A DNA stretch of 61,771 nt, counting the filler, from Sphacelaria rigidula (Eukaryota), in NCBI GenBank assembly GCA_964200075.2. It is 11 parts of 11 records of this genome, joined end to end, with 100 filler letters (N's around TTAATTAATTAA, not from the genome) between each part and the next. Parts side by side here need not be neighbours in the genome. Positions count along the whole stretch, not along the records: positions 11,251 to 16,775 come from CAXNAA020026627.1; 10 more parts are not named here. One strand, 5' to 3'. Positions 2,048 to 61,771 of the stretch are shown in pieces. How positions within the stretch are numbered: the first letter of the stretch is position 1; each line of letters starts with the position of its first letter. Made by a program: the position numbers and the translations under genes. The notes under the pieces were generated by a model. It saw only the letters and a list, made by a program, of their open reading frames with translations, was not told the DNA's origin and did not search any database.

Positions 2048-2299
2048 GACACTTTCTATGATAGCCCCCCCCAAAAAAACCCAGCAAAAAGTGTCATGAA
2101 ACAAATGGCCACACAGCGCCTGATGTTCGGGTTCAGGCTGCATGAAGCGCCTCATATTGGCGACATTGGCTAGAACAAACCCAAGCGTGGGAATTCCCAG
2201 CTTTTCGTTGTGCTCGGCTTTTCCCATTTCGATTTACGTGGAGAATTTGCCTCCCGAAACCATGCACTTTGGGGGGGGGGGGCTATCGCAGAAAGTGTC
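2048..2299. mobile_element. MITE (~250 bp), same family as 58927-59168 and 61701-61771
   Basis: TIRs GACACTTTCTATGATAGCCCC / GGGGCTATCGCAGAAAGTGTC; internal sequence shared with the other two copies. Confidence 0.85.
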
Positions 2300-14300: not shown

Positions 14301-15911
14301 GTCAGTTAAGGTGCGACAATCCATCAATCAAACGATTCAATCATTGTTTCTTGTGGTTATCTTTGCATTGCTTGTCACCACACAAAGTGTGGTGGCACTA
14401 TATGTCTAGAGCGATGGGCGTCTGCGCGCCGCTCTGCCTCGATTTTGAGACGATGAAGCAACTCAACAGCGAATGCCGCTATCTTTGACTGGAGTTTTGT
14501 CCCAGTATAGAGCCAAAATATCAATAACTTGATTTTAGTGTAAAAACCGACTTATTAAAATCTTGAATGGGGCTGACAGTCTCGAGTGCTCCCGTCAAAA
14601 ATTGTTGCCGCAGGCGCCGATTAGAGGTCTACCAGCGCGCACGCTGCCTGAGGAACCCTTTGCACCCCCCTCGCTACACTAGGAGATAGATGGTGGCCAC
14701 AGACGGCGAGACAGAACGGGGATATGTGAAAGGTTCTTGTCTAACACATGGAATGAACGAAATGAGCACTTTAATGTTGGAGGTGTCTCTATTGGAGAGT
14801 AGGAACGGTGCTCCGTTTCGAAAGGGATGTGTGGCCAATGGTCAAATCACGAAGGCAAGCAACAAATGAGTACGCACCCCCCTCTGCTTGAGGGTTCTCG
14901 GCATGCCTGGGGGTGGGGTCAGGGGTTACGGTTAGCGTCACAGTACTTCGAGCATATTTCAATCATGTGAATATGTTGTTGCCAAGCCGAGCGGGAACAA
15001 ACCTAGCTCCTCTCCAAGGGCTGCGGACTTACAGAGTTGATAGATGTCGCTGATAAAAGTACCCTCGCGATGGAGAGGTTAAAAAAATGTTGAAAAAAAT
15101 AGTCGAGTCATAATTCTCCTGAAGATTCGAGAGAACAGCGCTGTTTGAGATTGCGTCTGATTTTTGGGGATTGAGTCTCACTTTGTGAGAAAACAATCTC
15201 CTCTTGGATGATCATATGCTGACATATATGATCATGACGATGAACAGACTCACCAGGCTCCTTTTGCTTGATCGACTCGCGGTGGGCGCTGCTGAACATC
15301 ATAAACCCTGACAGCGGCCGTGGCGCACGCTTCACCTTTACCTTTTTTGCAGGCTTGCCTTTGTCAGACCCGGCTGACTTCCTCTGTGAGGTTGGGGGGG
15401 GGGGGAAGGGTGGGAAGACGTGTATAAAATTCAGGCGCATTCATGCACAAAAAGGGATCCGTTCACGAACGCTTATGGCAGCGTAGGCAACAACAAGAAG
15501 AAAGAAAAATACGGGAAAATATTCCAAAATTCTCCTCGAGGCGACGGCGTCAACAGAGAGAAAAAAAAAGGAGGCGTTTTGCAATGTTCAGGCTGCACGA
15601 GAATTTCTCTCCCCTTGTCGCAACTGTCTCGTCGAGGCCGTTTGGTACACAGGAATACCTTGTAACAAGACGGCGCCTTCATCATAGAGGAAACCGGGCT
15701 TCCAACACTTCACTTCTTCTCAACCCCTCTGCCTCGGGGATGGTACTTCCCGCAACCTACAGTACGCATTTTTTCAACTCTCGACTATTTTTGGCGTTCG
15801 CATGCTTACCTTCTTGACGGGCTTGGCCTTTTTCTTCTTCTCCGGTGGTCCCTTGCTCGCGTCCGGACTCGGGCTGAACAGGAAGTCGACGATGCGTTTG
15901 ATCACGGTTGC
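11394..15911 (-). CDS. 3' part of a DEK/SAP-like + HMG-box chromatin protein with acidic tail. Exons 15911-15810, 15383-15254, 13799-13729, 13093-13010, 11420-11394 (stop)
   Basis: All exons have AG/GT boundaries with compatible phases. Spliced product: ATVIKRIVDFLFSP…K-rich…KRAPRPLSGFMMFSSAHRESIKQKEPELSFTDVGRRMGELWKEVPDAEKEKYKQ…DDDGDEEEEEEEEEEEE*. HMG-box consensus is clear. Confidence 0.88.
12300..12510. repeat. Diverged dispersed repeat, also at ~33000-33183
   Basis: Shared TGCGACGCTGA…TTGATTCGTACGG…TACACT…GACGAATCATT. Confidence 0.6.
14278..14342 (+). repeat. Retroposon-like 3' end …GGTCAGTT(A/G)(A)GTGCGAC with (CAAT)n tail; also 45818-45885 (-) and 48835-48883 (+)
   Basis: Same ~40 bp motif directly followed by CAAT repeats in three contigs. 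Confidence 0.65.
14673..14873 (+). mobile_element. 5'-truncated LINE (family A) with perfect 11-bp TSD GCACCCCCCTC, in the HMG gene intron
   Basis: Matches the 3' end of 52672-53747; TSD at 14662-14672 and 14874-14884; ends ATGAGTAC with no poly(A). Confidence 0.88.
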
Positions 15912-17095: not shown

Positions 17096-20000
17096 TCATC
17101 TCCCTAATTCGGTTATAGCCTTCAGCAGTCTCTGATGTACAATTCTATCACAACTTTTGGTGAGAAGATCGGCTAATTGTTCTGGAGATCGTACATAGTT
17201 TATCCTTAGTTGTCCGGCTCGAATCATATACTTTAAATTGAAGAGTCGTATCGCCAGGTATTTCGAGCAGGTGCTGAAGTTGACGTTCGAAGACAGATAA
17301 AGTGCGCCTTGTGACTCCGAGTAGATAGTCGCGGGCTCGATTGATGATCACCCAAGCTCTCGTAAAAGATTGAAGAGATACGTTCAGAATTTGCCTCATT
17401 TCGAAAGGGCAATTAACTTCGCTTCTGTCGTAGAAGTAGGTGTAATACGTTGAAGACTCAAAGTGAAATGAACTAGCCCGTTAGACATGAGAAACAACGT
17501 CCCCGTCGTGGATCGCATTTTTCCCTGAAGCCCAGCATTACCATAGCTAGCGTCACAATATCCCTTTAAATCCAGATTCTTTTCGGAGGTTGCGTACGTT
17601 AGCGGAAGATCGGGTTTTCCTTTCAGGGACCGAAATATCCGTTTAACTGCTACTAAGTGTTGACTACGCGGGCTGCTCATATGACGTACTACCTGGGCGA
17701 CACTAAATGCGATGTCGAATCTTGTGCTCTGGGCCAGGAAGATGAGACTCCCAGCCATCGCTTGGTGCTTAGTTTTCTCTAACGGTTCCAGGACGGTATT
17801 TTCAGACGCATCGTCAACGAGTTGATTTGGTGTTCCCGGTGTGTGAACTGGCTTGGATGACTCCATGCCGAATTTCTTGAGCATTGATTCTACGTACCTA
17901 TGCTGTGACAACTTGAGAGTTCCTCGCGCTTCATCTCTGATGGCCTCTATACCGAGAATACGAGAAACTGGCCCTCGCTCGGAGATGGAGAATCTTGACT
18001 TCAGTGCGTCCTTGAACTGTTACAGTATGCTAATTGACGATCCTGTCATCAAGACATCATCTACATACAGAGTAAGCATCACATATCCCTCATGGGATCC
18101 TTTTGTGTAGACACATAGATCACTTGCTGTGGCTAAAAAGAACATTTTCCGTAGCTCGGTATCCATGGTATCATTCCACACGTTTGGGCTCTGACGCAGT
18201 CCGTAGAGAGCGCGCTTGAGGCGCATCACTTGTGGTTCTCCTGTCGTTAGGTCGAACGTCTCGAAGCCAGGAGGTTGTCTACATAATGCTGTTTCCTGTA
18301 GCTTGACATTCAAGAAAGCAGTTTGTACGTCGAGGGCTACACGGGTGGCCACTGGGGTGCCTGTAACCTCGAATTTGGACGTTACAGACTTTGCTCAAGG
18401 TCTATAACGTCCAAATTTGAGGTTCCAGGCACCCCAGTGGCCACTCGTGTAAGATAGGCCAATTTTTCGCCGTAGAAATTGCCAGTAACAATCGCTGACT
18501 TTCCAACCTGCAAACTGGAGCGAACGTACTCCCGCAGTCGGGTCCATGCCTCTGAGACCAACCTTGAACCACCAACCGGGCTTCAAAGCGCCCGTCGGCC
18601 TTGACCTTAAAGACCCACCTCGTACCGATGATGCTGTTGTTGCTGGGAACAGAGCTGGCCGGGATTATGTCGGATACTTCATGATTTTTTATGCTTTGAA
18701 GTTCATCCAGCATGGCTGCTTTCCATTTCTTCGCGTATGGTGAGCTCGATGCCTGTCGATAGTTGGTAGGGACTGAAATTGACGCGGGTGGTGCAACCTG
18801 TTCAACTCCGACAGTGCCTATGAACTGACATACCGTTTCCAGCGTTGATGCATGACCACCAAACGACATGACGGCTAGTCGCTTTAGCTCACTGGCTTGC
18901 CGTTTGTTAACGGATCCAGAAGGATGATGATTGGGACCGCCGGCTGAACGCAACCTCCTTTGGGCGATTGGCGGCCCTGTAGTCGGTGAGTTGTCCTCTG
19001 TGGTGCTGTGCTCTAGCTGAGCTATACCATCGTAGATATTCATGTTTGAGTTGTTTTTGTCGTCATACTGTTCCTGTTCAACTACAGATACGTCGCGTTC
19101 CTGGATGTCTAATGTCGAAAAATCTTTATCACTGTAAAGGGCACCTGTTACTTGTTCGATGAAAAGTGACGTTTCTGGAGCTGGATATTTTCCCCGAGTA
19201 GCGGTTGTAAAAACGGTACGATGGGCTATCGGAATCATACCCTACCAGCACTCCTTCCCAAGCCTTTTCTTCTAAATTACTGTGATGACGCTCCTGTGCA
19301 CAAACACTCTCGACTCGATTGTTCGCAAGAATGATAGCTTCGGTTGCTTGAGAAACATCCGAAAATGCGGAGTGTCACCGCCGATGCTCGTGTGCGGCAG
19401 ACGGTTGAGTAGAAAGATCGCAGTTGCAGAAATTTCTCACCAAAGAAATTTCGGCAGTTTCGATTCGTTCAGAGAGCAACGTGTAACGTTCAAGATGCTC
19501 CGCCCGTCTGTTTCACTGATGCCATTCTGCTGAGGAGTGTATGGGCTGGTGAACTCTTGACGAATACCCGTAGTTTTGCAGTACCTCTTAAAGTAGTCCG
19601 CGACATATTCACCCCCACGGTCTGACCGCAGGCGGTGTACACGGAGTCCTAAAGGAATAGCCAAATCTTGGATGAACCTGCAGAGCGTAGTTAAGGTCTC
19701 ATCCTTCGTTTTAATGAACTAGACTACCTTGAAACGCGTGAGGTGATCCGTAAATTTTGCCATGTACCGATATCCTCCTTGCGCCATGGGCGTGATCGGT
19801 CCTGTTAGGTCAGTGCTGACCAGTTGCAGTCATTCCGAATTATTCGTGGAGTCAACAGTCCTTGGGTGGTCCTGCTGTACACTTTTATTAATTTTGCACG
19901 TCACTCAAGGTGACAGTGACCCTTCAAAGTTCACATCTGATTCAGGGGTATTCAGTAGACGGCGCATGACCTGCTTCGTGGGATGTCCAATCGCCCATGC

Positions 20001-22036
20001 CAAGTGTCTGCTCCTGTCGTGGTGGACAAATTTGTCGGGTCTGCTCCCGCCGTGGCAGACATAGCTGCTGAAACTCCCGGCATGTCGTGGTGAATGGCTT
20101 CCGCAACAGCGGCTGTCCCGATGCCCTTAGATTCTCCTGATATAATTGTAGTTGTAAATGCTGAGCTGTTATTGATACTACCCGGTTTCCGAGAAACTTT
20201 CACGCTGATGTACTGTAACGCTCCGTTGCTGTCACTGTTGATACACACTTTAAACTTTCCAAGACCGATGTGGGACTCGTGAGAAAATATAGTCGAAGCT
20301 CCCTTCGCAAGAGCTTGCACAGGGGAGAGCAGATGCTTCTCCAAACCTGGGACAATCACGGCTGGGAGCCGAGGAGAGCATTGGTACCCCTCAGAGTCAA
20401 TGACGAAGGTGCTGAAAACTCCTTTTGCTGTATCATGCAGTAGATGGCGTCCCGCTGTTAAAATAGTCATCGGGAGATGAAGTTTGACAACCTCGACAAT
20501 TTCACGTTCGATATTGGGCAGCAACTGATCATCCAAAAAGTGTCCAGTGCTGCCGCTGCCCACTGTTAACTGGAAAGAAATTTGATCGGATGTATCAGTG
20601 ACATGTGAGCCGGAAAGAAAAGAAAATCACATACCGTTTGGCGGTGAAGATGAATCGATCACTGTCAAAGCTGTTGATGAAGAAGTTTGTACGCCGTTAT
20701 TGTTCGATGGTGCGGTTGTAGAATCTGAATCGGCGGCGGCTGTATTGGCTCGGCGTTGATGTCCGTCGGAGGTGTTGCTGCCGATGTTGCTGTTGTGGTT
20801 GCTCCTACTGTTGTTGTTGCTGCTGTTGTCGCGGTTGTCATTTCGATGGCGGGAATTTCTACGACGATGATGGGTATTGTTGTTCCCAGCGTTGTCGATC
20901 GCATTCCCGCTATTATGTTGAGATCTACACTCAGAATCGTCATGCTTGTCAGTATGATGGAAACTGCATTATTTTACAGGCCTGTTCCCATGGTTTGACT
21001 GCATTTTAGAACGACAGTCTCTCATATGATGGCCTGGCCTCCCGCAGGTGTAGCAACTTCCACGGAATTTCTGGGGTTGATTCAAAGATTTCGACAGTGA
21101 TGCCACCAACAGTGATGAATCGCGGCCATGCAATTTTCCGGAGATGATTCTCCGCGCCATGCGATTAGCATACACATTTCGTTGTTGTTTCGATGCTCTG
21201 AATACTGAGATCTGGGTCACGCTCCGCATTGTATTTGATGAGGTCATACTCGCTTGTTAAACCTTCGATCACTCTGTCAGTCAGCCTTTCTTCGGAAATG
21301 ATCTCGCCAAGGTTGTCCAGTTCGTCCCGAAGCTGATACACTTTGCTCAAGAAAGTATCAGGGTCTTGCCCTGGTGACATAGTGACGTTGTTGAGTTCTC
21401 TCATCAAGATCCTGATTCTCTGCTTCGAAGAATTTTGATACAGTACTTGGAAATCAAAGCCCCCCATGCACGTTTGCCGTTTGGTCTCTCTGAACCCCTC
21501 GGCTGGAAACGCAACAAATAACTCGCTGCAGGACCGGTTGTAGACAGGTACAAAACGTGGAAGAATTGTTGATTGCACCGGTCCCAACTCTCTATCTCAC
21601 GCGTGTTAGAAATCTGCCTCACATGTGACACCACGCTGAGAGAACAAGATTATTGTGTAGAATGATGGTCTTCTTCAGTAGGTCCACTCCCGTCCACCGC
21701 TGCTATCGTCTCGTCCCCCGCGGTTGCCTCCACCGATGATGAATGCGGTCGAACGGACGACTGCTGGCGGGTGGTTTGGGAATGAGTTCTGGTAGGGCTA
21801 AGTCTTGTGGCAGCTGGTTGTGGCAGGTCTACCTCAGAAAAGTCTTCTTCGACAATTTCCGCGGGGTTTTCGACCCCGTTGAGGATATCCGCAATCCCCG
21901 GATGAGTCAAAGAAATGATAGCGCGTGTAGAGCGCATCCACTCGACGAACTTTGTACCGTCGAACTTGTTGATGCTCTTGATGAGCTGAGTCACAGATGG
22001 CTCTCCCGACATATTCACCTGCCTCGCGTTACTCAT
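17096..22036 (-). mobile_element. Ty1/copia LTR retrotransposon gag-pol, degenerate (stops and frameshifts)
   Basis: Domain order: gag with CYTCGRPGHHMRDC knuckle; protease remnant (VGSGSTGHF); WHGRL pre-integrase; integrase SDRGGEY…PQQNGISE; RT RWVFKVK…LYGLRQSP…LYVDD; RNase H GYCDASYG…ADLLTK. Confidence 0.97.
18340..18449. mobile_element. 110-bp hairpin MITE with TA TSD (Tc1/mariner-type) inserted in the copia RT
   Basis: ~51-bp TIRs CACG(G/A)GTGGCCACTGGGGTGCCTG…; TA on both sides; removal restores NWPILALDVQTAFLN. Confidence 0.92.
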
Positions 22037-22207
22037 AAACCTTTCTCTTCACACCTGCAGATCTTTTGGAAAGATCAGGGTTCTTGGACTCTTGATTGTC
22101 GCTGCTGTGGCGACCTTGATGTGACACCTCCTCGCTCGTGCTGACCGATGTAGTCTCGAGCCGAAGGCCGATGACCTGAAGACCTATCTACGTGGTCGCG
22201 AATCGGT

Positions 22208-22571: not shown

Positions 22572-22662
22572 TGGGTTGATGCTTTACAAATATGCGTAAT
22601 ATTGAGCTGCACTGTTGAATTGCCCCTCTCGTGCCGCGCGGTATACATATCTCGGTATCTAG

Positions 22663-25359
22663 GCATGGCCACGTGGAAGTTGCCAACATCCTTCTAGCAG
22701 CCGGGGCCTCCAGCAGCAGGACGAACCCTGAAAATTACACGGCACTTCATGTGGCTGCTGAGTTCGGGTCTACTAAAGTGGTCCAAAGGCTCATTAAAGA
22801 AGGGGCATCCTTGACTTGCGTTGATATCATGGGCGACAATCCTTTGCACGTTGCGTCGTTTTCTGGAAAGGCCGATGTCCTAGCCGAATTATTGGGAGCT
22901 GCCATGCCGGAGGCGATCCATATGAAAAATAGAGACGGAGAAACTCCGATTTCGGTCGCCATTTCCAATGGCCATGTGGAGTCGGTGAAGCATCTACTGC
23001 GTGGAGGTGGACGTCCGGAGCCATTTGACCTCTATGTCGCCGCCTTCCACGGTTTTCATGATATAGTTCAATGCCTTCTTGATGTGGGCGCCAGTGCAGC
23101 TTTTCTTACCGCTGGGGGAACATCTCCATTGGCGGCCGCCGCCCAGGAGAATAATCCGGACATTGTTCGGGCACTGCTTGCCCATGAAATTGATGTTGTA
23201 GGAGGAATTGCATCTTGGGCAGATGCCCTATGTCTCGCAGCCGGCCGCGGACATGCGAGCATTATACAGGATTTACTAGACGTGGTATCAGGAGCCGATG
23301 GTGACCTGAAAGATGCACTTGCCACCGCACAGCTGTTTTTGCGTCGCCAAGGTATGTCGCCTCTTCACTATGCTACCGGCTTCAGTAACGCCAAGGTAGT
23401 ACGTGTACTGCTGAGAGCTGGGGCCGACGAGGCTGCTGTAAATGACGCCGGCTTGACTCCGTTGGATGTTATCGGTACCACGACTCGTCCACCACCTGCG
23501 GATGATGAGAAACGAGACTTTTCCCGCTGTTCCCCCGCTACCATCGTGGGTCCGGGCGCACACAAGAGGTGGCGTATACGCTCGATGATCATGCAGGCTG
23601 CGGGATATAGAGCCCGGTCCTGGTCCTACCCTGCGACAGTGTCGGTAAGTCCGAAAATCACCCATTCCGGAAAAGCGTCACCTTCATCGCCGATAAAACA
23701 ACCCGTTTTCACAGCTCGGATTTTCCGTCATGGAGACAAGCGCCGCTCATGGTTTGTTGAGGCCATTGCTAGGTGAGGTTGCAGAGAGTAAGCATGAGGG
23801 TGGTTGCGTGAAGTACAGGTGTGTATGAGTCTTCATGCGACTAGTCACGCAGGCGGTGCCCCCTCCACCAGTACAGTTGTGTGACAAGTTCGAATCCGAG
23901 GGGCGTTTTGCAATTGACCGTGAATGGTATTTTCTCACGGCGTGCCATACCGTGGGCAGCGGAAAGTGCCAAACTAGTGAAGTTGTGCAGCCATCCCTCA
24001 TGGTTTGCACTTCATCGTCAGGGCGGCTGGTAGGCCGCGTGCAAGCTACTTACCCGTACATGAGCCGGCCTCTGGGGAATAAGCACACCCACTTGTGGAC
24101 ACGTTTGGGATGGCAACGCTGACGGACAGTAGCTTTTATCCGGTTCATTGATCGTCCACCCGTTCGTCTTCCCGGTTCGAACCGTATGTCAGGTCTAACG
24201 CCATAAGTGGCACGACCGGCGCAATCGCCGACACCGCCAAAAGAGCCGAAGCCGCTGGAAGTGTTCGAACGGTTGATGTCACGGGGAGCCCTCACGAAGT
24301 GCATGCTCCGGCGACGATGGGCTGACAACCGCGTGCCATCCGCAGTGGTGGTGTAAAGAAATGGGTCGAATATACGAGGGACAAAATGAGGTATCAATAC
24401 CACCCTGAATGTCCCACTTTGACGGGCGGCGGGTTGGGGAAAGGGGCAAGAGGAGGGGCAATGGAGATGATCGGGAGAAAGGGAGGAGGGGGTCGAGCAA
24501 ACTGCTCTATCCCTGTGTGGTATAGATCAAAACAAAACTTGCTTCTATCATACTCTACCGCGGAGGGCTTCATGATTTTCGCTGGAGGTGGGAGTAAATC
24601 GGGTTCAGTGGGAGATTAAGAACACAGCGGATACAAATGTAGCCACTGGGGCAAGACAGCGAATGGTGAACAAATAGGCTGTAAAATCACAACAAGTGTG
24701 TAGATAGTCTTTCCTACTTGCCAGGAGTCGCGCCTAGATGACAAGGGAATATAATACTCTACGCAGACAGCTGGGGACGCAAGGACGTGGATGTTGGCTC
24801 GATGAATTCGAGGCCAGGGCGGCGGGCGCGGTCAAATACCTGCTTCGCTTTTACATGCATATGTTGTGCCTGTTCATGGAATCTCTCATAGTGCACCCGC
24901 TGGTCTCTACTCCCAAAGAGGAGCTCCTGATGAATTTCAACACCTTCTCTAATACGATGGGTGGCGAGGGGGGGGGTTCCCGCTGCTCCGCTGTTCCATC
25001 ACTTTCTAAACAACGTGTGCCCTGTACGGGACTTGACGGACGCTGCGCCTACCGTGACCGTCCTTCCACTGCTTTACACAACCGATTGGGCAATTTCGTC
25101 CAAGTGCCTCAATGTTGTTGTTCCTCCGCAAGCAAAATACCGCGTGGGACGAAACCTGATATTATGTCCCGCAGCCCTCCCGCCCGAAAAACTTCACGAG
25201 GGAGATCGCACGTTGCTCCACACAGCATAGAACTCCACCTACATATAGACCGCACAATACTGTACGGTGCGGTACATGTGTACAGAAGGCTGAATGCATC
25301 CGCGCTGCTACTGACTGTGTTTTTATTATATCAGATACGCCCATGCGCCGAGGTTTTGA
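22663..25359 (+). CDS. Ankyrin-repeat protein, 3' part: large exon 22663-23772 plus probable terminal exon 25335-25359
   Basis: Multiple ankyrin motifs (TALHVAA, NPLHVAS, GETPISVA, SPLAAAA, SPLHYA, GLTPLDV). AG at 22661-2, GT at 23773. Phase-compatible acceptor with CTGAC branch and pyrimidine tract gives R-YAHAPRF*. Confidence 0.85.
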
Positions 25360-33532: not shown

Positions 33533-33598
33533 GTACCTATTTGTTGCTTGCCTTGGTCGTTCGACCATTGACCACGCATCCCTTTCGAGACGGAGCAG
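33533..33598 (-). mobile_element. Short LINE A 3' fragment between G/C tracts
   Basis: TGCTCCGTCTCGAAAGGGATGCGTGGTCAATGG…GCAAGCAACAAAT on the - strand. Confidence 0.8.
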
Positions 33599-37755: not shown

Positions 37756-37858
37756 GTACTCATGTGTTGCTTGCCTTAGTCGTTCGACCATTGACCACGC
37801 ATCTCTTTCGAGACAGAGCACCGTCCCTACTCCTAATAGCCACCTTCAACATTCCGGC
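37756..37858 (-). mobile_element. LINE A 3' fragment with C-rich flanks
   Basis: Matches the LINE A tail; flanks read CCTCCGCCCCCC and CCTCCCGCACCCC on the - strand. Confidence 0.8.
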
Positions 37859-38812: not shown

Positions 38813-39170
38813 GTACTCCTTTGCTGCTTGTCTTGTCGCTTGACCATTGGCCACACATCCCTCTCGAGACGGAGCACCGTGGGGGGTGGGGGTGTACTCA
38901 TGATCTTGCATGCGATAGTAACATGGCCTTTGACCTCGAATCCCCACAAAGCCGGGACGGAGCACGCCGATTTTTCGCCGCATCAGGCTCGAAATCAATC
39001 ACCAAGCGCGAACCCCCGTGATCTGTTCGGCGAGTCGCATGAAGGATAAGCTGCATCCTGCTAAGATCGTTCGGCTCGAAGCGTACTGATTATCTTGCAT
39101 TTGGATGACAACCTCCAATGAGTTATTTCATCTCCTGGTTACTTAAGTTTCTGGCATCGCCACTTTCAGA
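38813..39170 (-). mobile_element. Repeat B 3' part (38894-39170) with a LINE A fragment (38813-38880) inserted in its C-tract
   Basis: B matches 52154-52400; the A tail follows directly after B's CCCCCACCCCCC. Confidence 0.8.
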
Positions 39171-39375
39171 GACAACCAGGTTTCTTGCTTTGCTCCCCCC
39201 CCCCCAGGGGGGAATGCGAGACGTGAACAAAGGTGACATGAAATCGTTTGATGCATTAGACAGTAGGGAGAAAACNNNNNNNNNNNNNNNNNNNNNNNNN
39301 NNNNNNNNNNNNNNNNNNNTTAATTAATTAANNNNNNNNNNNNNNNNNNNNNNNNNNNNNNNNNNNNNNNNNNNN

Positions 39376-42600: not shown

Positions 42601-42950
42601 GGCCATTTGTTGCTCGAAATTTCGAGTCAGATCGTCCTCGAAAGCAGCAACGGTTGTCCGAACAAGCTTGNNNNNNNNNNATGTCTGACACACTTATGAG
42701 CTTCATTTTTCGTGCAACCAAATACCCCCCCCCCTATCGTAGGATGACTCCCCGTGTCCCGTTTCGCCGCGCCACACACCTCCCTCCCCCTCACCTCCCC
42801 ACACCGCTGCACCCCTCAAACAGTTCGACAGAGGTGATGTCGAGAGGAAGACCATATCACCGGCGTCGTTCGGCAAGCTCATCCCATTCAACATCAGACA
42901 ACAATCAATACGCACATGCCTCTGCGTTCATTGTCTCCAAGGAAAACTAG

Positions 42951-44700: not shown

Positions 44701-45244
44701 GTGAGCATATTTTGGGTTGCAGATATTGTAAATAATATAACTCCTTCATTTTTTTGTCGTGGGTGCAAAAAAAAACCTTTCCCGGTGGGTGATAACAAAA
44801 AAAAAGAAATGACGTATAAATGAATGCAAGGGGCCTTACAGACTGGAAACCGGTTTATACCCCCCCCCCCCCCCTCAGGGGTGGTCGAGAATGAGGAAAN
44901 NNNNNNNNNNNNNNNNNNNNNNNNNNNNNNNNNNNNNNNNNNNTTAATTAATTAANNNNNNNNNNNNNNNNNNNNNNNNNNNNNNNNNNNNNNNNNNNNA
45001 CAACAAAATATACATCCCATACAAGTCAAATCAACGCAAAAAAAAACGCAAGAGCCCAAAAACAATCGGTAACCTGGTTGCCTAGCTTACGTAGTGAGTG
45101 GCGTGTTTTACAGCGTCATCGCCAAGCGACGCCAAGGAGGGGGGGGTGTACTCATGATCATGCTTGCCATAGCCAAGGAAGGGGGGGGGGGGGATTGGTT
45201 GGCATACTAGATCATACTGGAAATACCTCGTTCACACTTGTCTG

Positions 45245-46651: not shown

Positions 46652-49600
46652 GACCTTCCCATGAACTCCTACCAGGGATATCTGTGTTTCCTCGGCAGGG
46701 ACAGTCAGTTCCCCAACATGGCGGCAGGGTGAGAGGCGATCACAACCATGGTCATAATCCATTTGGCATACGGACCCTCCGAACCCTAGGAGGAAGCAAA
46801 TACACTGAAAGGAACGGAACGAACGCCGGACACTAGTACCTCCGAATGTCAATTACCCCGAAGCAAATATTACTTAATCACTCCAATCGTGCATTATCCG
46901 CAAAATGTTTTTACTTACCCACTCTCCGTCCCCCCCGCCCCCTGCGGGTGTACTCATGACTATGGCATGCATGATCATGAGTATACCCCGCCCCCTGCTA
47001 GAAGGAAGAAGGAGATACACCAGGTTTCGAAAGAAGGAGGAAGTAGATGGACATAATTGCCCCTGTAGCAAAGGAATCTAGAGCAGAAGTCATGGAGTGG
47101 GAGAATGTGAACTGTACAAGGAGGAATGACACGTACCAGAGGGGGAAATGCGGGACGTGAACGAAGGTGGCATGAAATCGTTTAGTGCGTTAGACAGTAG
47201 GGAGGAAACGATGGCTTATACTAGGAGATAAATGGTGGCCACAGACGGCGAAACAGGACGGGGATAAGATATGTAGAAGGTTTTGTGTAATTTACACAGG
47301 CTGGTTCACGTTAATTACCCCAAAAATACTCATCGGCAAAACCTCACGCCGTTTCAAGGAGTTAGACCCTGAAATTTCGCACGAACGTTCTATGGGTAAT
47401 TACGCAACTTTCGAAGGTGTTCTTTTTTTTTTACTTATTGACTTTTTCACCGTTCTCCGTGGATCTCAGTTTTTTTGGGGAAACCTCGACCCAATCGGAC
47501 CCCCATAAAACGGTGACAAAAAATAATCAAAACCCCCCGTTCATCCAAAGTTGCGTAATTACCCAAAGCACAGTTGTACAAAATTTCCAGTCATTTTCAA
47601 ATCACAATGATGCCGATTCACAAAAACAAAAATCGTCAATGGGTTCCCAAAGGGTTGAAATACCTTCACACGTCGGATAGTTCGTGAGCTAGCTCACGTG
47701 CGGTCACTTGCGGTCACTTGCCGCCAAACATGTACATGTGAGCTACACCCGATAGCTCACCCAGGGTAAACGTGCGCTGATGAGCTACGCGTTGGTAGCT
47801 CACTCAGGGCACACATGCGTACATCATGTATCTGTCATAAATCACCCAGGGCAAACATGCGTAGCTCACGTAGCTCTCTCATAGCTCACCCTGGGCAAAC
47901 ATGCGTAGCTCCTGTAGCTCCCATAGCTCAGTAGGGAGCTACGTTCAAGAGGGGCTAGCTGGAGCTACAGGAGGGAGCTGATCTGTCCGACATATGGGGT
48001 TTTTCCAATTTCGCCTTCCGGTCTTACGCGAATAATTGTAAATCAAGGGTTGAAGCCATATAAGGGCAAGAATGGCGCGGGCGTATCGGATCGGGAATTT
48101 GTTTCCGCCGCACTTTTTCTGTCGATATTTTTGTTATGAGACACCCTAGTCCCCAGCCACTAGAGCTTGCCTGAAAGAATGCCTGAACTACCGTTTCTTG
48201 AAGTATAGTGCAGTACAGCACAGTGCAATGCAGAACACTACGGCGCACCACATTGCGGTACGGCACAGCAGTACATACAGCACAATGGTAGTTTTCCAAA
48301 CAAGGAAGAGACAAGCCGCACGGCAACGATTTTGCAGCATGTCGCACCGACAACGGAACGACAGCGCAGCATTGCCACTGTCCAGCACGAGTGGTGGACT
48401 ACGCATCGTGCACATCGTCTTCTCCTTGCCGAACATGCACAAGACTGGCGATAGTGCGGAGCTCTACCGAATGCAACCCTTTGTGCGCACCAAACGTTTC
48501 AATTTTACCCAGCACAAGAGAGCGAATGGTGGTACCGTGGTGGGGGCAGGGAGGTCGCCTGCTGCGATGTCAGACATTACTACTTCGTTACTGGTGGCTG
48601 CGTCCGGTAGCTCATCCAGGGCAAACGTGCGTGGCCCACGTTGCTCTCATAGCTCACCCAGGGCAGACATGCGTAGCTCATGCAGCTCTCATAGCTCACC
48701 CAGGGCAAACGTGCGTAGCCCATGTAACTCCCATAGCTCTGTAGGGTACGCTAAAGAAGAGCTAGCTCGAGCTATAGGGAGCTGATCTAGCCAACGTGTG
48801 AATACCTCGGGTTCAGTCAGCCTATACTTTGACACCGGCTGGATCATGACCGAGGTCAGTTAGTGTGCGACAATCGATCAATCAGCCGAAACAATCTAAT
48901 CCGCAGGTACAGTCATCATTGCTGCAGATGATATGCTAGCCCAATGGCATACACGCATATTCGCCGGCGCGCCCGCGCCTCCATGGCCTAGCTAGTACAG
49001 CAATAGCTAGTACAGCAATAGCTGGTACACCGATAGCTAGCACAGCGATAGCTAGCACAGCGATAGCCAGTGAGAGTCGAAGTCTGCGAGTTTGTTTTCC
49101 CAACATGTAATGTTTTACCGAGAAAGAAGTGGTGTCTGCAGTTGAAAGCCTGAGGACGAGGTAACTATCATGGTAAATAAAATTCGACGAGAGTTGGCGG
49201 GGGTACCGAAGTGCTGGCAGTCATGATCCAATCCTCGACTGACCAAAATGTTGGGCATTTACCGGGGAGTCGTGGAGGTGGGTGGGTGAGGGGTACTAAT
49301 ATGTTGCTTGCCTTAGTTACTTGACAATTGACCACGCATCCCTTTCGAGACGGAGCAACCGAGGAGAGATGGGCTTGGTCTCTTGCGACTGTTGAATTGT
49401 CCCGAGGAAGGGGAGGGGAGTATTATTGAAAGTATGGCGAACAAAAAAAACACAAGAGAGCATCATATGATGAACTGAGTTCTGCTTGAAAATGCCGAGA
49501 TCTATGCTAGGCCCAATCTGGGGCTGCGATGCTACCGCTTTATTCCGGAAAGAAGGGTAGCGTGGGTGATTTGAGCCAAAAATACAGGTGGTTTTGCTGT

Positions 49601-50037: not shown

Positions 50038-51019
50038 GTGGGTCTCGCCAAAGACAAAAAAATCGGTTCTCAAGCATGGGAAACACATGTTTATATACAC
50101 ACATGTGTGTTTATTCGAGAAAAGTGAAATAGGGTAATATTAGATGTTATTTCGATTACCGATTCTTTATTGTTTAGCGGTATTTTGTGCACCCGTTGCC
50201 TCGAGTCATTGGTTCAGAACCATGTGTGCATGCTGTTTAGAGATACAAAAGTAATGGTCTAATGTGATGCCAAGAGAACGCCGCAAGCTTTCCTCGAGGG
50301 AAAAATAGTGGGGAACTCGTTACCGTTTTTTCTTCTTCTCACAAGACAGTGAGTACACTAACCTGATGTACAGGTACAACAAGTTTTCGTGTTTACCTAC
50401 TTCGGTGTGTTGAGTGATTTCCAGAGTATAACGCCGCAAAATAAAGGTACCTACCCCGCCGCATAGCGAGCCTGGTCCGGCGAAAACCCGGCGTGCTCCG
50501 TCCCGGCTTTGTAGGGATGCGAGNNNNNNNNNNNNNNNNNNNNNNNNNNNNNNNNNNNNNNNNNNNNTTAATTAATTAANNNNNNNNNNNNNNNNNNNNN
50601 NNNNNNNNNNNNNNNNNNNNNNNGGGATGCGTGGTCAATGGTCGCACGACTAAGGCAAGCAACAAATGAGAACGCCCCCCTCCGTGAGACAGCGAAATAG
50701 GACGTGCACTTTTTACACGCCATGTGCATTTTTGGTGAGCTCTCGAGCTCATGTATCCCTCATCTTCCAGGATACACAATGGGATCGTGAGTGTGTGTTG
50801 TCAACCCATGTATTCTGGACGCCAGTCTACACCTTTCGGTGCATGTGGACTCATCAGCCGTGGTCACACGGGAGGAAGGCCAACGCAGGATTTCACCTTC
50901 CTTCTCCAGTGCTTGCCTTGTTTTTTTTTTTATCGCGAGAGGGGTTCAGCAGTCCCATTCCCTCGTCGACCGTGAAGTCGAATTTTGTGTACTCAGGCCC
51001 ATGATCGCTCTCCACTGTC

Positions 51020-52153: not shown

Positions 52154-52400
52154 GTACTCATGATCATGCATGCCATAGTCAGAAGACCGTTGACCTCGCA
52201 TCCTTACGAAGCCGTGACGGAGCACGCCGGGTTTTCACCGGAGCACGCTCGCAATCAATCACCAAGGGCGGGGTGCTGTGACGTTTTCGGCGAGTCGCAT
52301 GAAGGGTGAGCTGCCTTGTGCTAAGATTGTTCGGCTCGAAGCCCACCAAGTATCTTGCATGTAGATGACAGCCTACAATACGTTACTTCATTTTCCCGTA
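52154..52400 (-). mobile_element. Repeat B 3' part ending ATGATCATGAGTAC, followed by a C-tract
   Basis: Homologous to 38894-39170, 50470-50523 and 3860-3925. Confidence 0.8.
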
Positions 52401-52671
52401 TCGCCAATCCCAGAGATGGCCACGGGTTACGGGCTGCATCATGGTTGTCTTACCATTTGAGCACTACGTGGTACGATCATCCCCTTGCGCGGAGTTTGAG
52501 GTTCTCCATTTCGCACAAAATGATCTAGCTCGAACACCATCATGATTACCGCAACAAAAACACGAGCCAAAAACGAACGGTAACCTCGTTGGTTACCTGG
52601 CTTACGCAGCGGGTGACATGTTTTACAGTGTCGTTGCCAACCGATGCCAAGGGGGGGCGATGAAGGGGGCG

Positions 52672-53747
52672 CACTCATTTGTTGCTTGCCTTAGTCGTTT
52701 GACCATGGGCCACGCATTCTTTTCGAGACGGAGCACCGTTCCTACTCCTAATAGAGACACCTCCGACTTCTCGGTGCTCATCACGTTTCGTCCATACATA
52801 ACACAAAAACCTCTTACATATCATATCCCCATTCTGCTTCGCCGTCTGTGGCCACCGTCGATCTCCTAGTATAGCCATCGTTTTGTCGCTACTGTCTAAT
52901 TCATCGAACAATTTCATGCCACCTTCGCTCACGTCCCGCATTTCCCTCGCGAGCACGTCCCGTTTATCCTTTTATAGCTCATATTCCGCCAATATATATA
53001 TGAGTTCTGTTCTCTATCGCTTTGCCACAGGGACAATTCTGTGCATCTGCCTCGTCCTCCTCTCGACTACTGGTGAGTCTCGTTCTTCTTTCTAGCAAGT
53101 CCAGGTCCCCCACCCGAAATCGCAGGTTCAATTGTTTCGCCGCGTCCACTGGGCCATGCACATATGTTTTCACCACGATCCCCTTTCTCAACCACCCGTA
53201 CATGTTCAGGTACTCTTCCTCGTCTACTTCGAGTCTGAGTGCTTCTTTTTCCCTCCTTTGTATCATGTCTCTTACATTCGTCTTTTATGCCCCTCGCCTT
53301 CACCTATGAACAGTATTTTATCTCAGGTTCCTCCTATATCCTTCCATACTTTCTCGACTTCTCTATCCCACTTTATTCCAGCCCGCCCTTGCTTCATTTT
53401 CTTCCATATAGCCTTATCAACTTTAGCTGGCCATTTTTTTCTCTGCATGTTTTTCATGCTACATTGTCATCGCAATTTTTTCATGTATCTTTTTGCTTAA
53501 CTGTAAGGGGGTACATTCACAACTCCGCTCTCAATACTGTCTTACTCGTCGTTCTCGAGCATCCGAGTATTTTCTTAGCTGCTGCCCTCTGTACTGTCTC
53601 CAACCTCTCCACCAACTTCACGTTCCCCTCCAATACTTCCCCTGCATATTCCAGCTTTGGTACAATCACGTTCATCAGGATACATCTTTTCATGGTGTGT
53701 CTAGGTGCAAGTCTCTGAGGATCACGCCCATCCTGTTTATCTGTGTA
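52672..53747 (-). mobile_element. 5'-truncated LINE A: RT thumb region plus CCHC finger, degenerate
   Basis: KRCILMNVIVPKLEYAGEV…LETVQRAAAKKILGC; LRFRVGDL…CPCGKAIENRTH; ILGDRRWP. 10-bp TSD-like G(A/G)AGGGGGCG at 52662-71 and 53748-57. Confidence 0.92.
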
Positions 53748-54581
53748 GGAGGGGGCGAGTGTAGTCCCGTACAATGCGATGGTACAGCACAGTACAGTAG
53801 AGCAAACGGCTTCCCACGCGTTTTGAGGACTTTAGCGTGACTTTTTCCAATAACCTGCGCTTGGAAGATTTCACCCCAACTCTGAAAAATTGGATCCGAA
53901 CTCTTGCCCGCGGATACACCGATATTATGCAAACGGGAAACGAGGTGAGGGAACAGGAGAGGGGAGGGGAATCGCACACCCTGGACAAAAGAATGACACT
54001 GTCAAAAGGTGTACTGTGTACGGTAATCGCTATTGCGCCCATTGCAGCAGACAACGGATTCCACATTGTACGCAGTACGTATTTTTACAATAGAATCTGT
54101 TGTCCAGGGTGTGGTCCGTAATATCAAATCGTATAGAGGGAAGTACACCTGAACAAGGCATGAAACGAAGTAGATGGGGGGTGGTACTCATGATATTGCA
54201 TGTCGTAGTCGTATGACCATTGATTTCTCAATATAAGTAGATGGGGGCGGCGGATGAACTCATTCGTCGCTTGCCTTAGTCGATGTCCAAATGACTCAGG
54301 CAAGCAACGAACGAGTACCCCCTTCCCCATCTACGCATGCGAGGTTAATGGGGGGGGGGGGGGAGGGGGCAGGCAGTACAAAAAGTCTAAGAACGATTAT
54401 TAGGGTGTTTTATCGTGTGTATACCTTTCCATGGCATAGCTATCTAGTGTCTACACAGCAGCATACCCTATGCGTGTGCTATTGACCAGCACTACAAGCA
54501 TCTACAAGCTGTTTGCATACTCTTGTCTCTATTTCCCCCCCCAAAAAACGACGTTTTTTCATCAACCTTATCGCGTGTTAC

Positions 54582-58926: not shown

Positions 58927-59168
58927 GAGTCTTTCTACCGTACCCCCCCCCCCAAAAAACCAGCCGGAAATTGTCAAGAAGAAAATAATCATACAGCGCC
59001 TGATGATTGGTTTCAGGCTCCATGAAGTGCCTCATATGGGCGACACCGGCGAAAACGAACCAACCCAAGCGTGCAAATTCTCAGCTGCTCATTGTGCTCG
59101 GCTTCTTTCATTGCGATATACGTGTGAATTTTGCCTCCCCACACCAGCTACGTTTTTGGGAAAGACTC
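58927..59168. mobile_element. MITE with GAG…CTC ends and 4-bp TSD GAAA (Sola-type)
   Basis: GAAA|GAGTCTTTC … GAAAGACTC|GAAA; removal restores copia GVTFRKISLQALIFQVFTDAYY. Confidence 0.85.
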
Positions 59169-61700: not shown

Positions 61701-61771
61701 GACACTTTCTACGATAGCCCCCCCCCCAAAACTAGCTAAAAGTGTCACGAAAAAAATGGCCATACAGCGCC
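61701..61771. mobile_element. Left end of a MITE of the 2048-2299 family
   Basis: GACACTTTCTACGATAGCCCCCC…ATGGCCATACAGCGCC. Confidence 0.85.

What the first reader, a model, noticed from the sequence alone, without database searches (positions are those of the whole stretch)
14662..14884. Tail-less LINE that appears to target C-tracts
Seen: LINE A copies end at …CAAATGAGTAC with no poly(A) or microsatellite tail. Here the truncated copy is flanked by a perfect TSD GCACCCCCCTC. The 1.1-kb copy (52672-53747) has CGCCCCCTCC/CGCCCCCTTC. Fragments at 33533, 37756 and 38813 have C-tracts on both sides, and those at 39207 and 46996 have one at the 5' junction. Known: some non-LTR elements target microsatellites or telomeric repeats. 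Inference: this family's endonuclease or priming prefers poly(C)/poly(G), and repeated TSD formation may seed the many long G/C homopolymers in this genome. I know of no description of poly(C) targeting, but could not search.
Basis: partly seen in the sequence, partly recalled or inferred. Interest (0 to 1): 0.75.

Follow-up and report, generated by a model that had tools for sequence, protein, structure and literature searches.

The report
Poly(C)-tailed brown-algal LINE targeting C-tracts
This is a truncated copy of an abundant LINE retrotransposon, likely from a brown alga, that ends in a short run of C's and sits in pre-existing C/G runs, likely because its C tail pairs with a nicked G run; the same traits are already noted for Ectocarpus RTE-X elements.

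Summary
A 201-bp LINE 3' end (14673-14873) lies between perfect 11-bp repeats. Genome-wide the exact 3' 20-mer occurs 4,150 times. C6+ runs lie at 39 of 62 5' junctions (background 2%), and empty copies of a host MITE already carry the tract, so C-tract targeting is real.

'Tail-less' is wrong. Where the target has only 3-5 C, the 3' side has more C in 10 of 12 cases. The base after GTAC is family-specific: G in the LINE, A in a ~570-bp non-coding partner sharing its last ~60 nt.

The ORF is APE endonuclease, RT and CCHC, 57-64% identical to Ectocarpus proteins in the RT. Dinatale 2025 (PMC12477816, Suppl. 3) already lists Ectocarpus RTEX-1/-2 with '(C)n 3'' and C-rich TSDs, plus a ~600-bp partner. 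Only 5 of 30 sampled C10+ runs adjoin these elements, so they do not explain most homopolymers.

Not found in my searches: a roughly fourfold drop in copy number at ~66 nt from the 3' end, matching a predicted RNA domain. Verdict: new member of a known, little-studied kind.

The parts
14662..14672 (+). 5' copy of target-site duplication, GCACCCCCCTC
14673..14873 (+). 5'-truncated LINE A copy (201 bp): C-terminal end of the ORF, stop TGA at 14867-14869, then GTAC
   Evidence: tblastn to P0001 residues 1294-1360
14808..14873 (+). Last 66 nt: predicted three-way-junction RNA domain shared with partner family B; its 5' edge matches the genome-wide truncation cliff
14874..14884 (+). 3' copy of the TSD; its first G also matches the family's encoded +1 G
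52672..53747 (-). 1.1-kb LINE A copy (post-RT region with CCHC motif, frameshifted) between near-identical C-rich 10-mers
52154..52650 (-). Near-complete copy of non-coding partner family B, directly 3' of the 1.1-kb copy, followed by a C-tract
33533..33597 (-). 65-nt LINE A mini-copy, C17 at the 5' junction, C-rich 3' flank
37756..37858 (-). ~103-nt LINE A copy with C-tracts on both sides
38813..38880 (-). ~66-nt LINE A mini-copy lying in the C-tract after a family B end
38894..39139 (-). Family B 3' part (246 nt)
39206..39275 (+). LINE A fragment after C11; 3' part lost in an assembly gap
46994..47294 (+). LINE A internal fragment; its 5' C-tract follows a short family B end (46953-46983)
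49293..49357 (-). 65-nt LINE A mini-copy; C-rich 3' flank, no long C run at the 5' junction
50624..50673 (+). LINE A 3' end after an assembly gap, followed by a C-tract
45148..45175 (-). Short family B end between C13 and C8 tracts
2048..2299 (.). Empty host MITE whose inverted ends carry C8 and C12 tracts; paralogues elsewhere are filled by LINE A mini-copies

Best explanation
This is a truncated copy of an APE-RT-CCHC LINE, likely of the brown-algal RTE-X lineage, that carries a short C tail and sits at pre-existing C/G tracts, likely because the G-rich strand is nicked and its G-ended primer pairs with the RNA's C tail.

Shown: domain order; element end ...TGA GTAC G (C)n; 8-20-bp TSDs, most beginning with C's; pre-existing target tracts; extra C at short targets; a ~570-bp non-coding partner with a similar 3' end; a truncation cliff near -66.

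Inferred: target-primed reverse transcription as a C/G mirror of L1's poly(A) tail and T-rich primer. A variable pairing register would give anything from no visible tail (the focal copy) to about 11 extra C. The tail would be regenerated by read-through into the C-tract that follows each source copy, since the stop codon lies 5 nt from the end. The protein would recognise the folded last ~66 nt, which lets partner B hitch-hike. New copies nest in the tails of old ones.
For: Domains: APE motifs, RT and CCHC in near-full copy L048; Pfam RVT_1 E=4e-20, Exo_endo_phos_2 weak at E=9e-4 and below cut-off; intact 1,360-aa relative P0001, 74% identical in RT, with PF03372/PF14529/PF00078.

Targeting: 39 of 62 versus 2% background; 15 of 18 TSDs have 3+ C in their first 4 bases with a caller that does not require C. 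Empty MITE copies carry about C7-15, and filled paralogues L111 and L122 duplicate tract plus flank; a second MITE is filled in L066, L100, L132, L146, L159. Long tracts are used about 28-42 times more per site than C3, against window run counts.

Tail: 3' C count exceeds 5' in 10 of 12 short-target insertions (p=0.019), e.g. 3 vs 14, 3 vs 13, 4 vs 10; 3' tract length is uncorrelated with target length (rho 0.08, n=35); +1 base is G in 112 of 149 A ends and A in 48 of 56 B ends. Four related loci from metagenome contigs also end ...TGA(G/C)TACG plus a C-rich run.

Literature: same traits in Ectocarpus RTEX-1/-2/-N1.
Against: Over all 35 TSD calls there is no net 3' excess (17 longer, 4 equal, 14 shorter), and homopolymers change length after insertion. 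TSDs were called in only 35 of 176 usable copies, and that caller required a C before the anchor. Three of 35 insertions have at most 2 C on the primer side.

The RNA structure is weak: z -1.5 and -1.7, no compensatory double change between A and B, the closing stem has probability above 0.5 in only 3 of 49 long copies in 200-nt context, and RNAalifold gave no consensus fold for 111 A ends.

No RNA ends and no biochemistry were seen. RTE-X placement rests on matching descriptions, not on a tree with named references.
Confidence: 0.8

Rival explanations
1. Truly tail-less element: all 3' C's are duplicated target, and the excess arose by later replication slippage.
For: The focal copy has a perfect TSD with nothing between; 18 of 35 calls have 3' C count equal to or below 5'; copies are old (about 80% pairwise identity).
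Against: C3 targets face 7-14 C at the 3' end (L092, L108, L110, L084), and three-base runs rarely expand so far (general knowledge). 3' length does not track target length. The +1 base is family-specific. The Ectocarpus curators also record (C)n 3'.
Confidence: 0.08
2. The preference comes from priming alone: the endonuclease nicks broadly (or existing breaks are used) and only G-ended primers pair with the C tail.
For: Three C suffice in 7 of 35 calls. No special base precedes the tract: T 14, A 14, G 7 of 35 (read), similar to the T>A>G order among the C10 runs listed.
Against: In L066, L095 and L101-B the tract lies almost wholly on the non-primer side, and long tracts are strongly over-used, though longer pairing could explain the latter. 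This rival concerns only one step of the best explanation.
Confidence: 0.4
3. C-rich flanks reflect retention or assembly bias, not insertion preference.
For: The assembly is fragmented and many copies lie at contig ends.
Against: About 30-fold enrichment at 5' junctions, TSDs far above shuffled pairs, and filled versus empty MITE paralogues.
Confidence: 0.02
4. The C tail is added by the CCA-adding enzyme to a tRNA-like 3' domain (stem, unpaired purine, CC...).
For: The predicted fold ends in a 6-bp closing stem followed by G or A and then CC.
Against: No CCA signature: positions +2 to +6 are 86-91% C and interruptions are mostly T. The topology differs from tRNA; no Rfam match above threshold for L193 or L139; ARAGORN found nothing in two B copies.
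Confidence: 0.04

Closest known systems
RTEX-1_Ec32 / RTEX-2_Ec32 (Ectocarpus RTE-X LINEs; Dinatale et al. 2025, PMC12477816, Suppl. 3)
   Same: Single EN-RT ORF, '(C)n 3'', 'C-rich' TSD, thousands of copies. Ectocarpus proteins are 57-64% identical to this RT among the top hits; P0003, whose 90% cluster holds Ectocarpus members, ends in a near-identical C-terminal peptide.
   Different: Different genome and older copies (about 80% pairwise here, versus mostly young TEs in Ectocarpus). Term searches of the main text found no discussion of targeting. The consensus FASTA supplements and Fig. 1C could not be read, so sequence identity to RTEX-1/-2 was not measured.
RTEX-N1_Ec32 (non-autonomous partner)
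   Same: 604-607 bp, '60 bp 3' end 83%' to the LINEs, C-rich TSD, tandem copies. Family B is ~570 bp, non-coding, about 77-81% identical over its last ~50 nt, 2,909 exact 21-mer matches.
   Different: Homology of the 5' head was not tested; B has a 31-38-nt head repeat of its own 3' unit.
Mammalian L1/Alu
   Same: APE-RT-CCHC layout (layout recalled); homopolymer tail thought to pair with a complementary primer at the target (PMC3812793 passage).
   Different: C/G instead of A/T; the tail cannot come from poly(A) polymerase; a shared 3' sequence with the partner points to stringent recognition; P0001 hits L1 ORF2p only weakly (E about 1e-20).
Stringent-type LINE/SINE pairs (UnaL2; green-algal RTEX)
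   Same: Shared structured 3' end and simple 3' repeat (PMC3747384 passages).
   Different: The six green-algal RTEX families listed end in (CA)n, (CAA)n, (CCAT)n and longer units, not (C)n. No family-specific slippage signature was seen in the tails here.

Membership tests
APE-type non-LTR retrotransposon | N-terminal AP endonuclease upstream of RT | tested here: met
   APE motifs in L048 and L041; PF14529 weak in L033; PF03372/PF14529 in intact relative P0001
APE-type non-LTR retrotransposon | RT domain | tested here: met
   RVT_1 E=4e-20
APE-type non-LTR retrotransposon | 5' truncation, fixed 3' end, variable-length TSD | tested here: met
   (TSD 8-20 bp)
RLE-type (R2/CRE) | C-terminal restriction-like endonuclease, no APE | tested here: not met
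   APE is N-terminal and the ORF ends about 105 aa after the CCHC
RTE-X (RTEX) clade | RT phylogeny with named RTEX references | not testable with these tools
   No Repbase/Dfam sequences on hand; the paper's FASTA supplements are unreadable
Ectocarpus RTEX-1/-2 type | Single EN-RT ORF | tested here: met
   P0001 (1,360 aa) maps colinearly on L048; G000 copies examined are all broken. An upstream ORF was not excluded because the true 5' end was not defined.
Ectocarpus RTEX-1/-2 type | (C)n 3' end and C-rich TSD | tested here: met
Ectocarpus RTEX-1/-2 type | ~600-bp non-autonomous partner sharing the last ~60 bp | tested here: met
   family B
Ectocarpus RTEX-1/-2 type | Full length 5.5-5.9 kb | tested here: inconclusive
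   Longest traced extent about 5.0 kb (L193, L041, L048)
Ectocarpus RTE (RTE-1/-2_Ec32) | (CAA)n 3' repeat | tested here: not met
   3' flank is C-rich, not CAA
tRNA-derived SINE (for family B) | tRNA or other Pol III head | tested here: not met
   ARAGORN 0 of 2 copies; Rfam no match above threshold in L139

The most novel reading that the evidence does not exclude
A full C/G mirror of L1: the APE domain itself nicks G-tracts, the RNA primes through a poly(C) tail, and the folded last ~66 nt is released or protected as a defined short RNA that is the element's main substrate, so that most genomic copies (roughly 7,000 of 10,000 reaching -65) are a minimal retroposon with no separate master gene.
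Probability: 0.15. Interest if true: 0.72.

Novelty: new member of a known kind. Interest (0 to 1): 0.38.

Why it matters
It gives genome-scale support to a trait so far seen by me only as a supplementary-table note: a LINE whose tail and target are C/G rather than A/T. That makes a standing question testable, namely how much of LINE target choice comes from the endonuclease and how much from tail-primer pairing. An intact 1,360-aa relative (P0001) and a ~66-nt candidate recognition signal are available for assays. It also corrects two ideas: the element has a tail, and it accounts for only a minority of the genome's long C/G runs.

Tried and rejected
- Empty allele of the focal site in other samples: four runs laid. 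Contigs of X3 and X4 reach into the insertion from both flanks, and no joint skipping it appeared among those shown (76 joints not shown). No RNA holder listed.
- Slippage signature (G interruptions in A tails, A in B tails): not seen; T dominates in both.
- CCA-type tail: rejected.
- Separate master for the ~65-nt copies: 58 short and 53 long copies share one majority sequence; three internal positions differ in frequency at p<0.01, at least one likely from how the sets were picked. Not supported, not excluded.
- Endonuclease consensus beyond the tract: none found (one search list).
- RNAalifold of A ends: no structure. Rfam: nothing above threshold.
- PDB sequence search: only distant L1 and R2 proteins, no help with clade.
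- Blepharisma papers (PMC9942856 and its preprint, passages only): their poly-C concerns a DNA transposon's ends; irrelevant.
- Earlier scan findings: none returned.
- No structure prediction or tree was run.

Full report
Observation. The focal insert is a 201-bp LINE 3' end at 14673-14873 between exact copies of GCACCCCCCTC. The host assembly G000 has 244 Mb in 27,214 contigs. The exact terminal 20-mer occurs 4,150 times with 0 control matches, and 1,700 of 2,099 forward matches are followed by CCCC within 3 nt.

What the element is. Walking upstream through long copies gave a broken single ORF with APE motifs, RT and a C-terminal CCHC. Pfam found RVT_1 at 4e-20 and a weak, sub-threshold Exo_endo_phos_2 match. 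The RT is 74% identical to an intact 1,360-aa protein (P0001) and 57-64% identical to the top Ectocarpus proteins, so the host is likely a brown alga. The stop codon lies 5 nt before the element's end (TGA GTAC G). Four of five related metagenome loci reach the 3' end, and all four finish with TGA(G/C)TACG plus a C-rich run. About 5.0 kb could be traced; the true 5' end was not defined.

A partner family. A second repeat (B) ends ...GATCATGAGTAC; its exact 21-mer occurs 2,909 times. Its longest copies are ~570 bp, have no ORF above 72 codons, no similarity to the LINE protein and no tRNA head, and share the last ~50-60 nt with LINE A at about 77-81%. A and B nest in each other's tails, including at 52154-53747 and 38813-39139 in the window.

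Targeting is real. I examined 75 copies in 70 loci drawn from the first 100 listed 20-mer places; the 40 loci I fetched by hand skipped places at contig ends. Of 62 usable 5' junctions, 39 have a C6+ run within 25 nt, against 2.0% of random windows. TSDs of 8-20 bp were called in 18 of 62 (shuffled mean 0.8), and 15 of 18 begin with 3 or more C in 4 bases. For the empty-site test I used paralogues: a ~250-bp MITE with 2,216 exact end motifs carries about C7-15 in its empty ends, including window 2065, 2271 and 61718, and L111 and L122 show the same ends filled with LINE A mini-copies and a duplicated tract plus flank. A second MITE is filled in five loci. Per available site, C6-9 and C10+ runs are used about 28 and 42 times more than C3, a rough figure based on 35 calls and window run counts.

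It is not tail-less. Among 149 A and 56 B ends, the base after GTAC is G in 112 A ends and A in 48 B ends, so it is element-encoded. In 35 TSD calls from 176 usable copies (shuffled mean 1.65), the 3' C count is unrelated to the target's (rho 0.08). Where the target has 5 C or fewer, the 3' side has more in 10 of 12 (p=0.019), up to 14 against 3. Against this, the whole set shows no net excess (17 longer, 4 equal, 14 shorter), which is expected if nicks fall inside long tracts but limits the test.

Mechanism. The simplest reading is target-primed reverse transcription mirrored from L1: a nick on the G-rich strand leaves a G-ended primer that pairs with the RNA's C tail in a variable register. 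Pairing of tail and target is proposed for L1 in PMC3812793 (passage). In the focal copy the primer would pair up to the +1 G with one mismatch, leaving no visible tail. The tail would be renewed by read-through into each source copy's own tract. These steps are inferred. Whether the endonuclease prefers G-runs or pairing alone selects them is open: three insertions have the tract almost wholly on the non-primer side, but no consensus beyond the tract was found.

A truncation cliff. 42 of the 75 copies are 56-73 nt long. Genome-wide, exact 18-mers at -48, -65 and -83 occur 4,252, 3,380 and 711 times. Normalised by their match rates in 52 long copies (16, 18 and 14 of 52), this is about 13,800, 9,800 and 2,600. 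The edge coincides with a predicted three-way junction closed by GUGCUC/GAGUAC. A-versus-B differences avoid its paired positions (1 of 42 versus 11 of 25, p=3e-5). Against it: z-scores are only -1.5 and -1.7, there is no compensatory pair, the closing stem rarely forms in longer context (3 of 49), RNAalifold gave no fold, and this stretch also codes for protein in A. A fold-back of the new cDNA, a protected RNA fragment or stalled reverse transcription could each explain the cliff.

Homopolymers. G000 has 45,686 C10+ runs on both strands. Of the first 30 listed, 5 adjoin an A or B end (random positions 5 of 300) and 3 more are strict MITE ends; in the window the figures are 9 and 5 of 34. The elements are enriched at such runs but do not account for most of them; very old copies may be missed.

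What is known. Dinatale et al. 2025 (PMC12477816; I saw the abstract, main-text passages, part 1 of 3 of Supplementary Material 3 and search hits in the others) lists RTEX-1_Ec32 'single EN-RT ORF; (C)n 3'', RTEX-2 '(C)n termini/TSD', TSD 'C-rich', and RTEX-N1 (607 bp, 60-bp shared 3' end, tandem copies). Its FASTA files and Fig. 1C were not readable and may hold more. Green-algal RTEX families end in other repeats (PMC3747384 Table 3). Seven searches (listings only for most hits) found no paper analysing poly(C) targeting or this truncation cliff; Repbase, Dfam and subscription journals were not covered.

Verdict. A real feature and a new member of a known but little-studied kind: it works like, and very likely is, the Ectocarpus RTEX-1/-2 type, though clade membership by tree was not testable. 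Interest 0.38.

Noticed in passing
window 2048-2299, 61701-61771, 58930-58970: ~250-bp MITE with inverted ends GACACTTTCTACGATAG plus a C-run; 2,216 exact end motifs in G000. An independent source of C/G homopolymers and a target of the LINE.
   Followed up: partly
window 42725-42750; L132, L146, L159: Second MITE (~280 bp) whose ends share the CTACGATAG-plus-homopolymer motif; L159 is filled at both ends.
   Followed up: partly
L139, L160 (family B): The head of B repeats 31-38 nt of its own 3' unit at about 82%; B copies cluster at 93-107 nt (8 of 56), which could arise by a jump between the two repeats.
   Followed up: partly
window 46930-46995: Short B insertion whose 5' part is an inverted copy of B's own 3' end and tail, between two CCCCGCCCCCTGC repeats; a similar inverted A-end arrangement lies at 54258-54322.
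   Followed up: no
L066 5' junction: About 10 extra bases resembling telomeric TTAGGG repeats between TSD and element.
   Followed up: no
P0013, P0017, P0029 (about 50% identical relatives from unnamed contigs): Their C-termini keep a 'GCVV' motif like the one encoded by the LINE's 3' RNA domain; whether they have C tails could not be checked.
   Followed up: no
window 17396-22048 (-): Broken Copia-like gag-pol frames, recognised by eye in the ORF list.
   Followed up: no
window 22619-23776 (+): 385-codon open frame with ankyrin repeats (Pfam Ank_2 E=2e-38).
   Followed up: partly
G000 contig ends: Many 20-mer matches lie within 30-70 bp of a contig end, suggesting the assembly breaks at these elements or their C/G tracts.
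   Followed up: no
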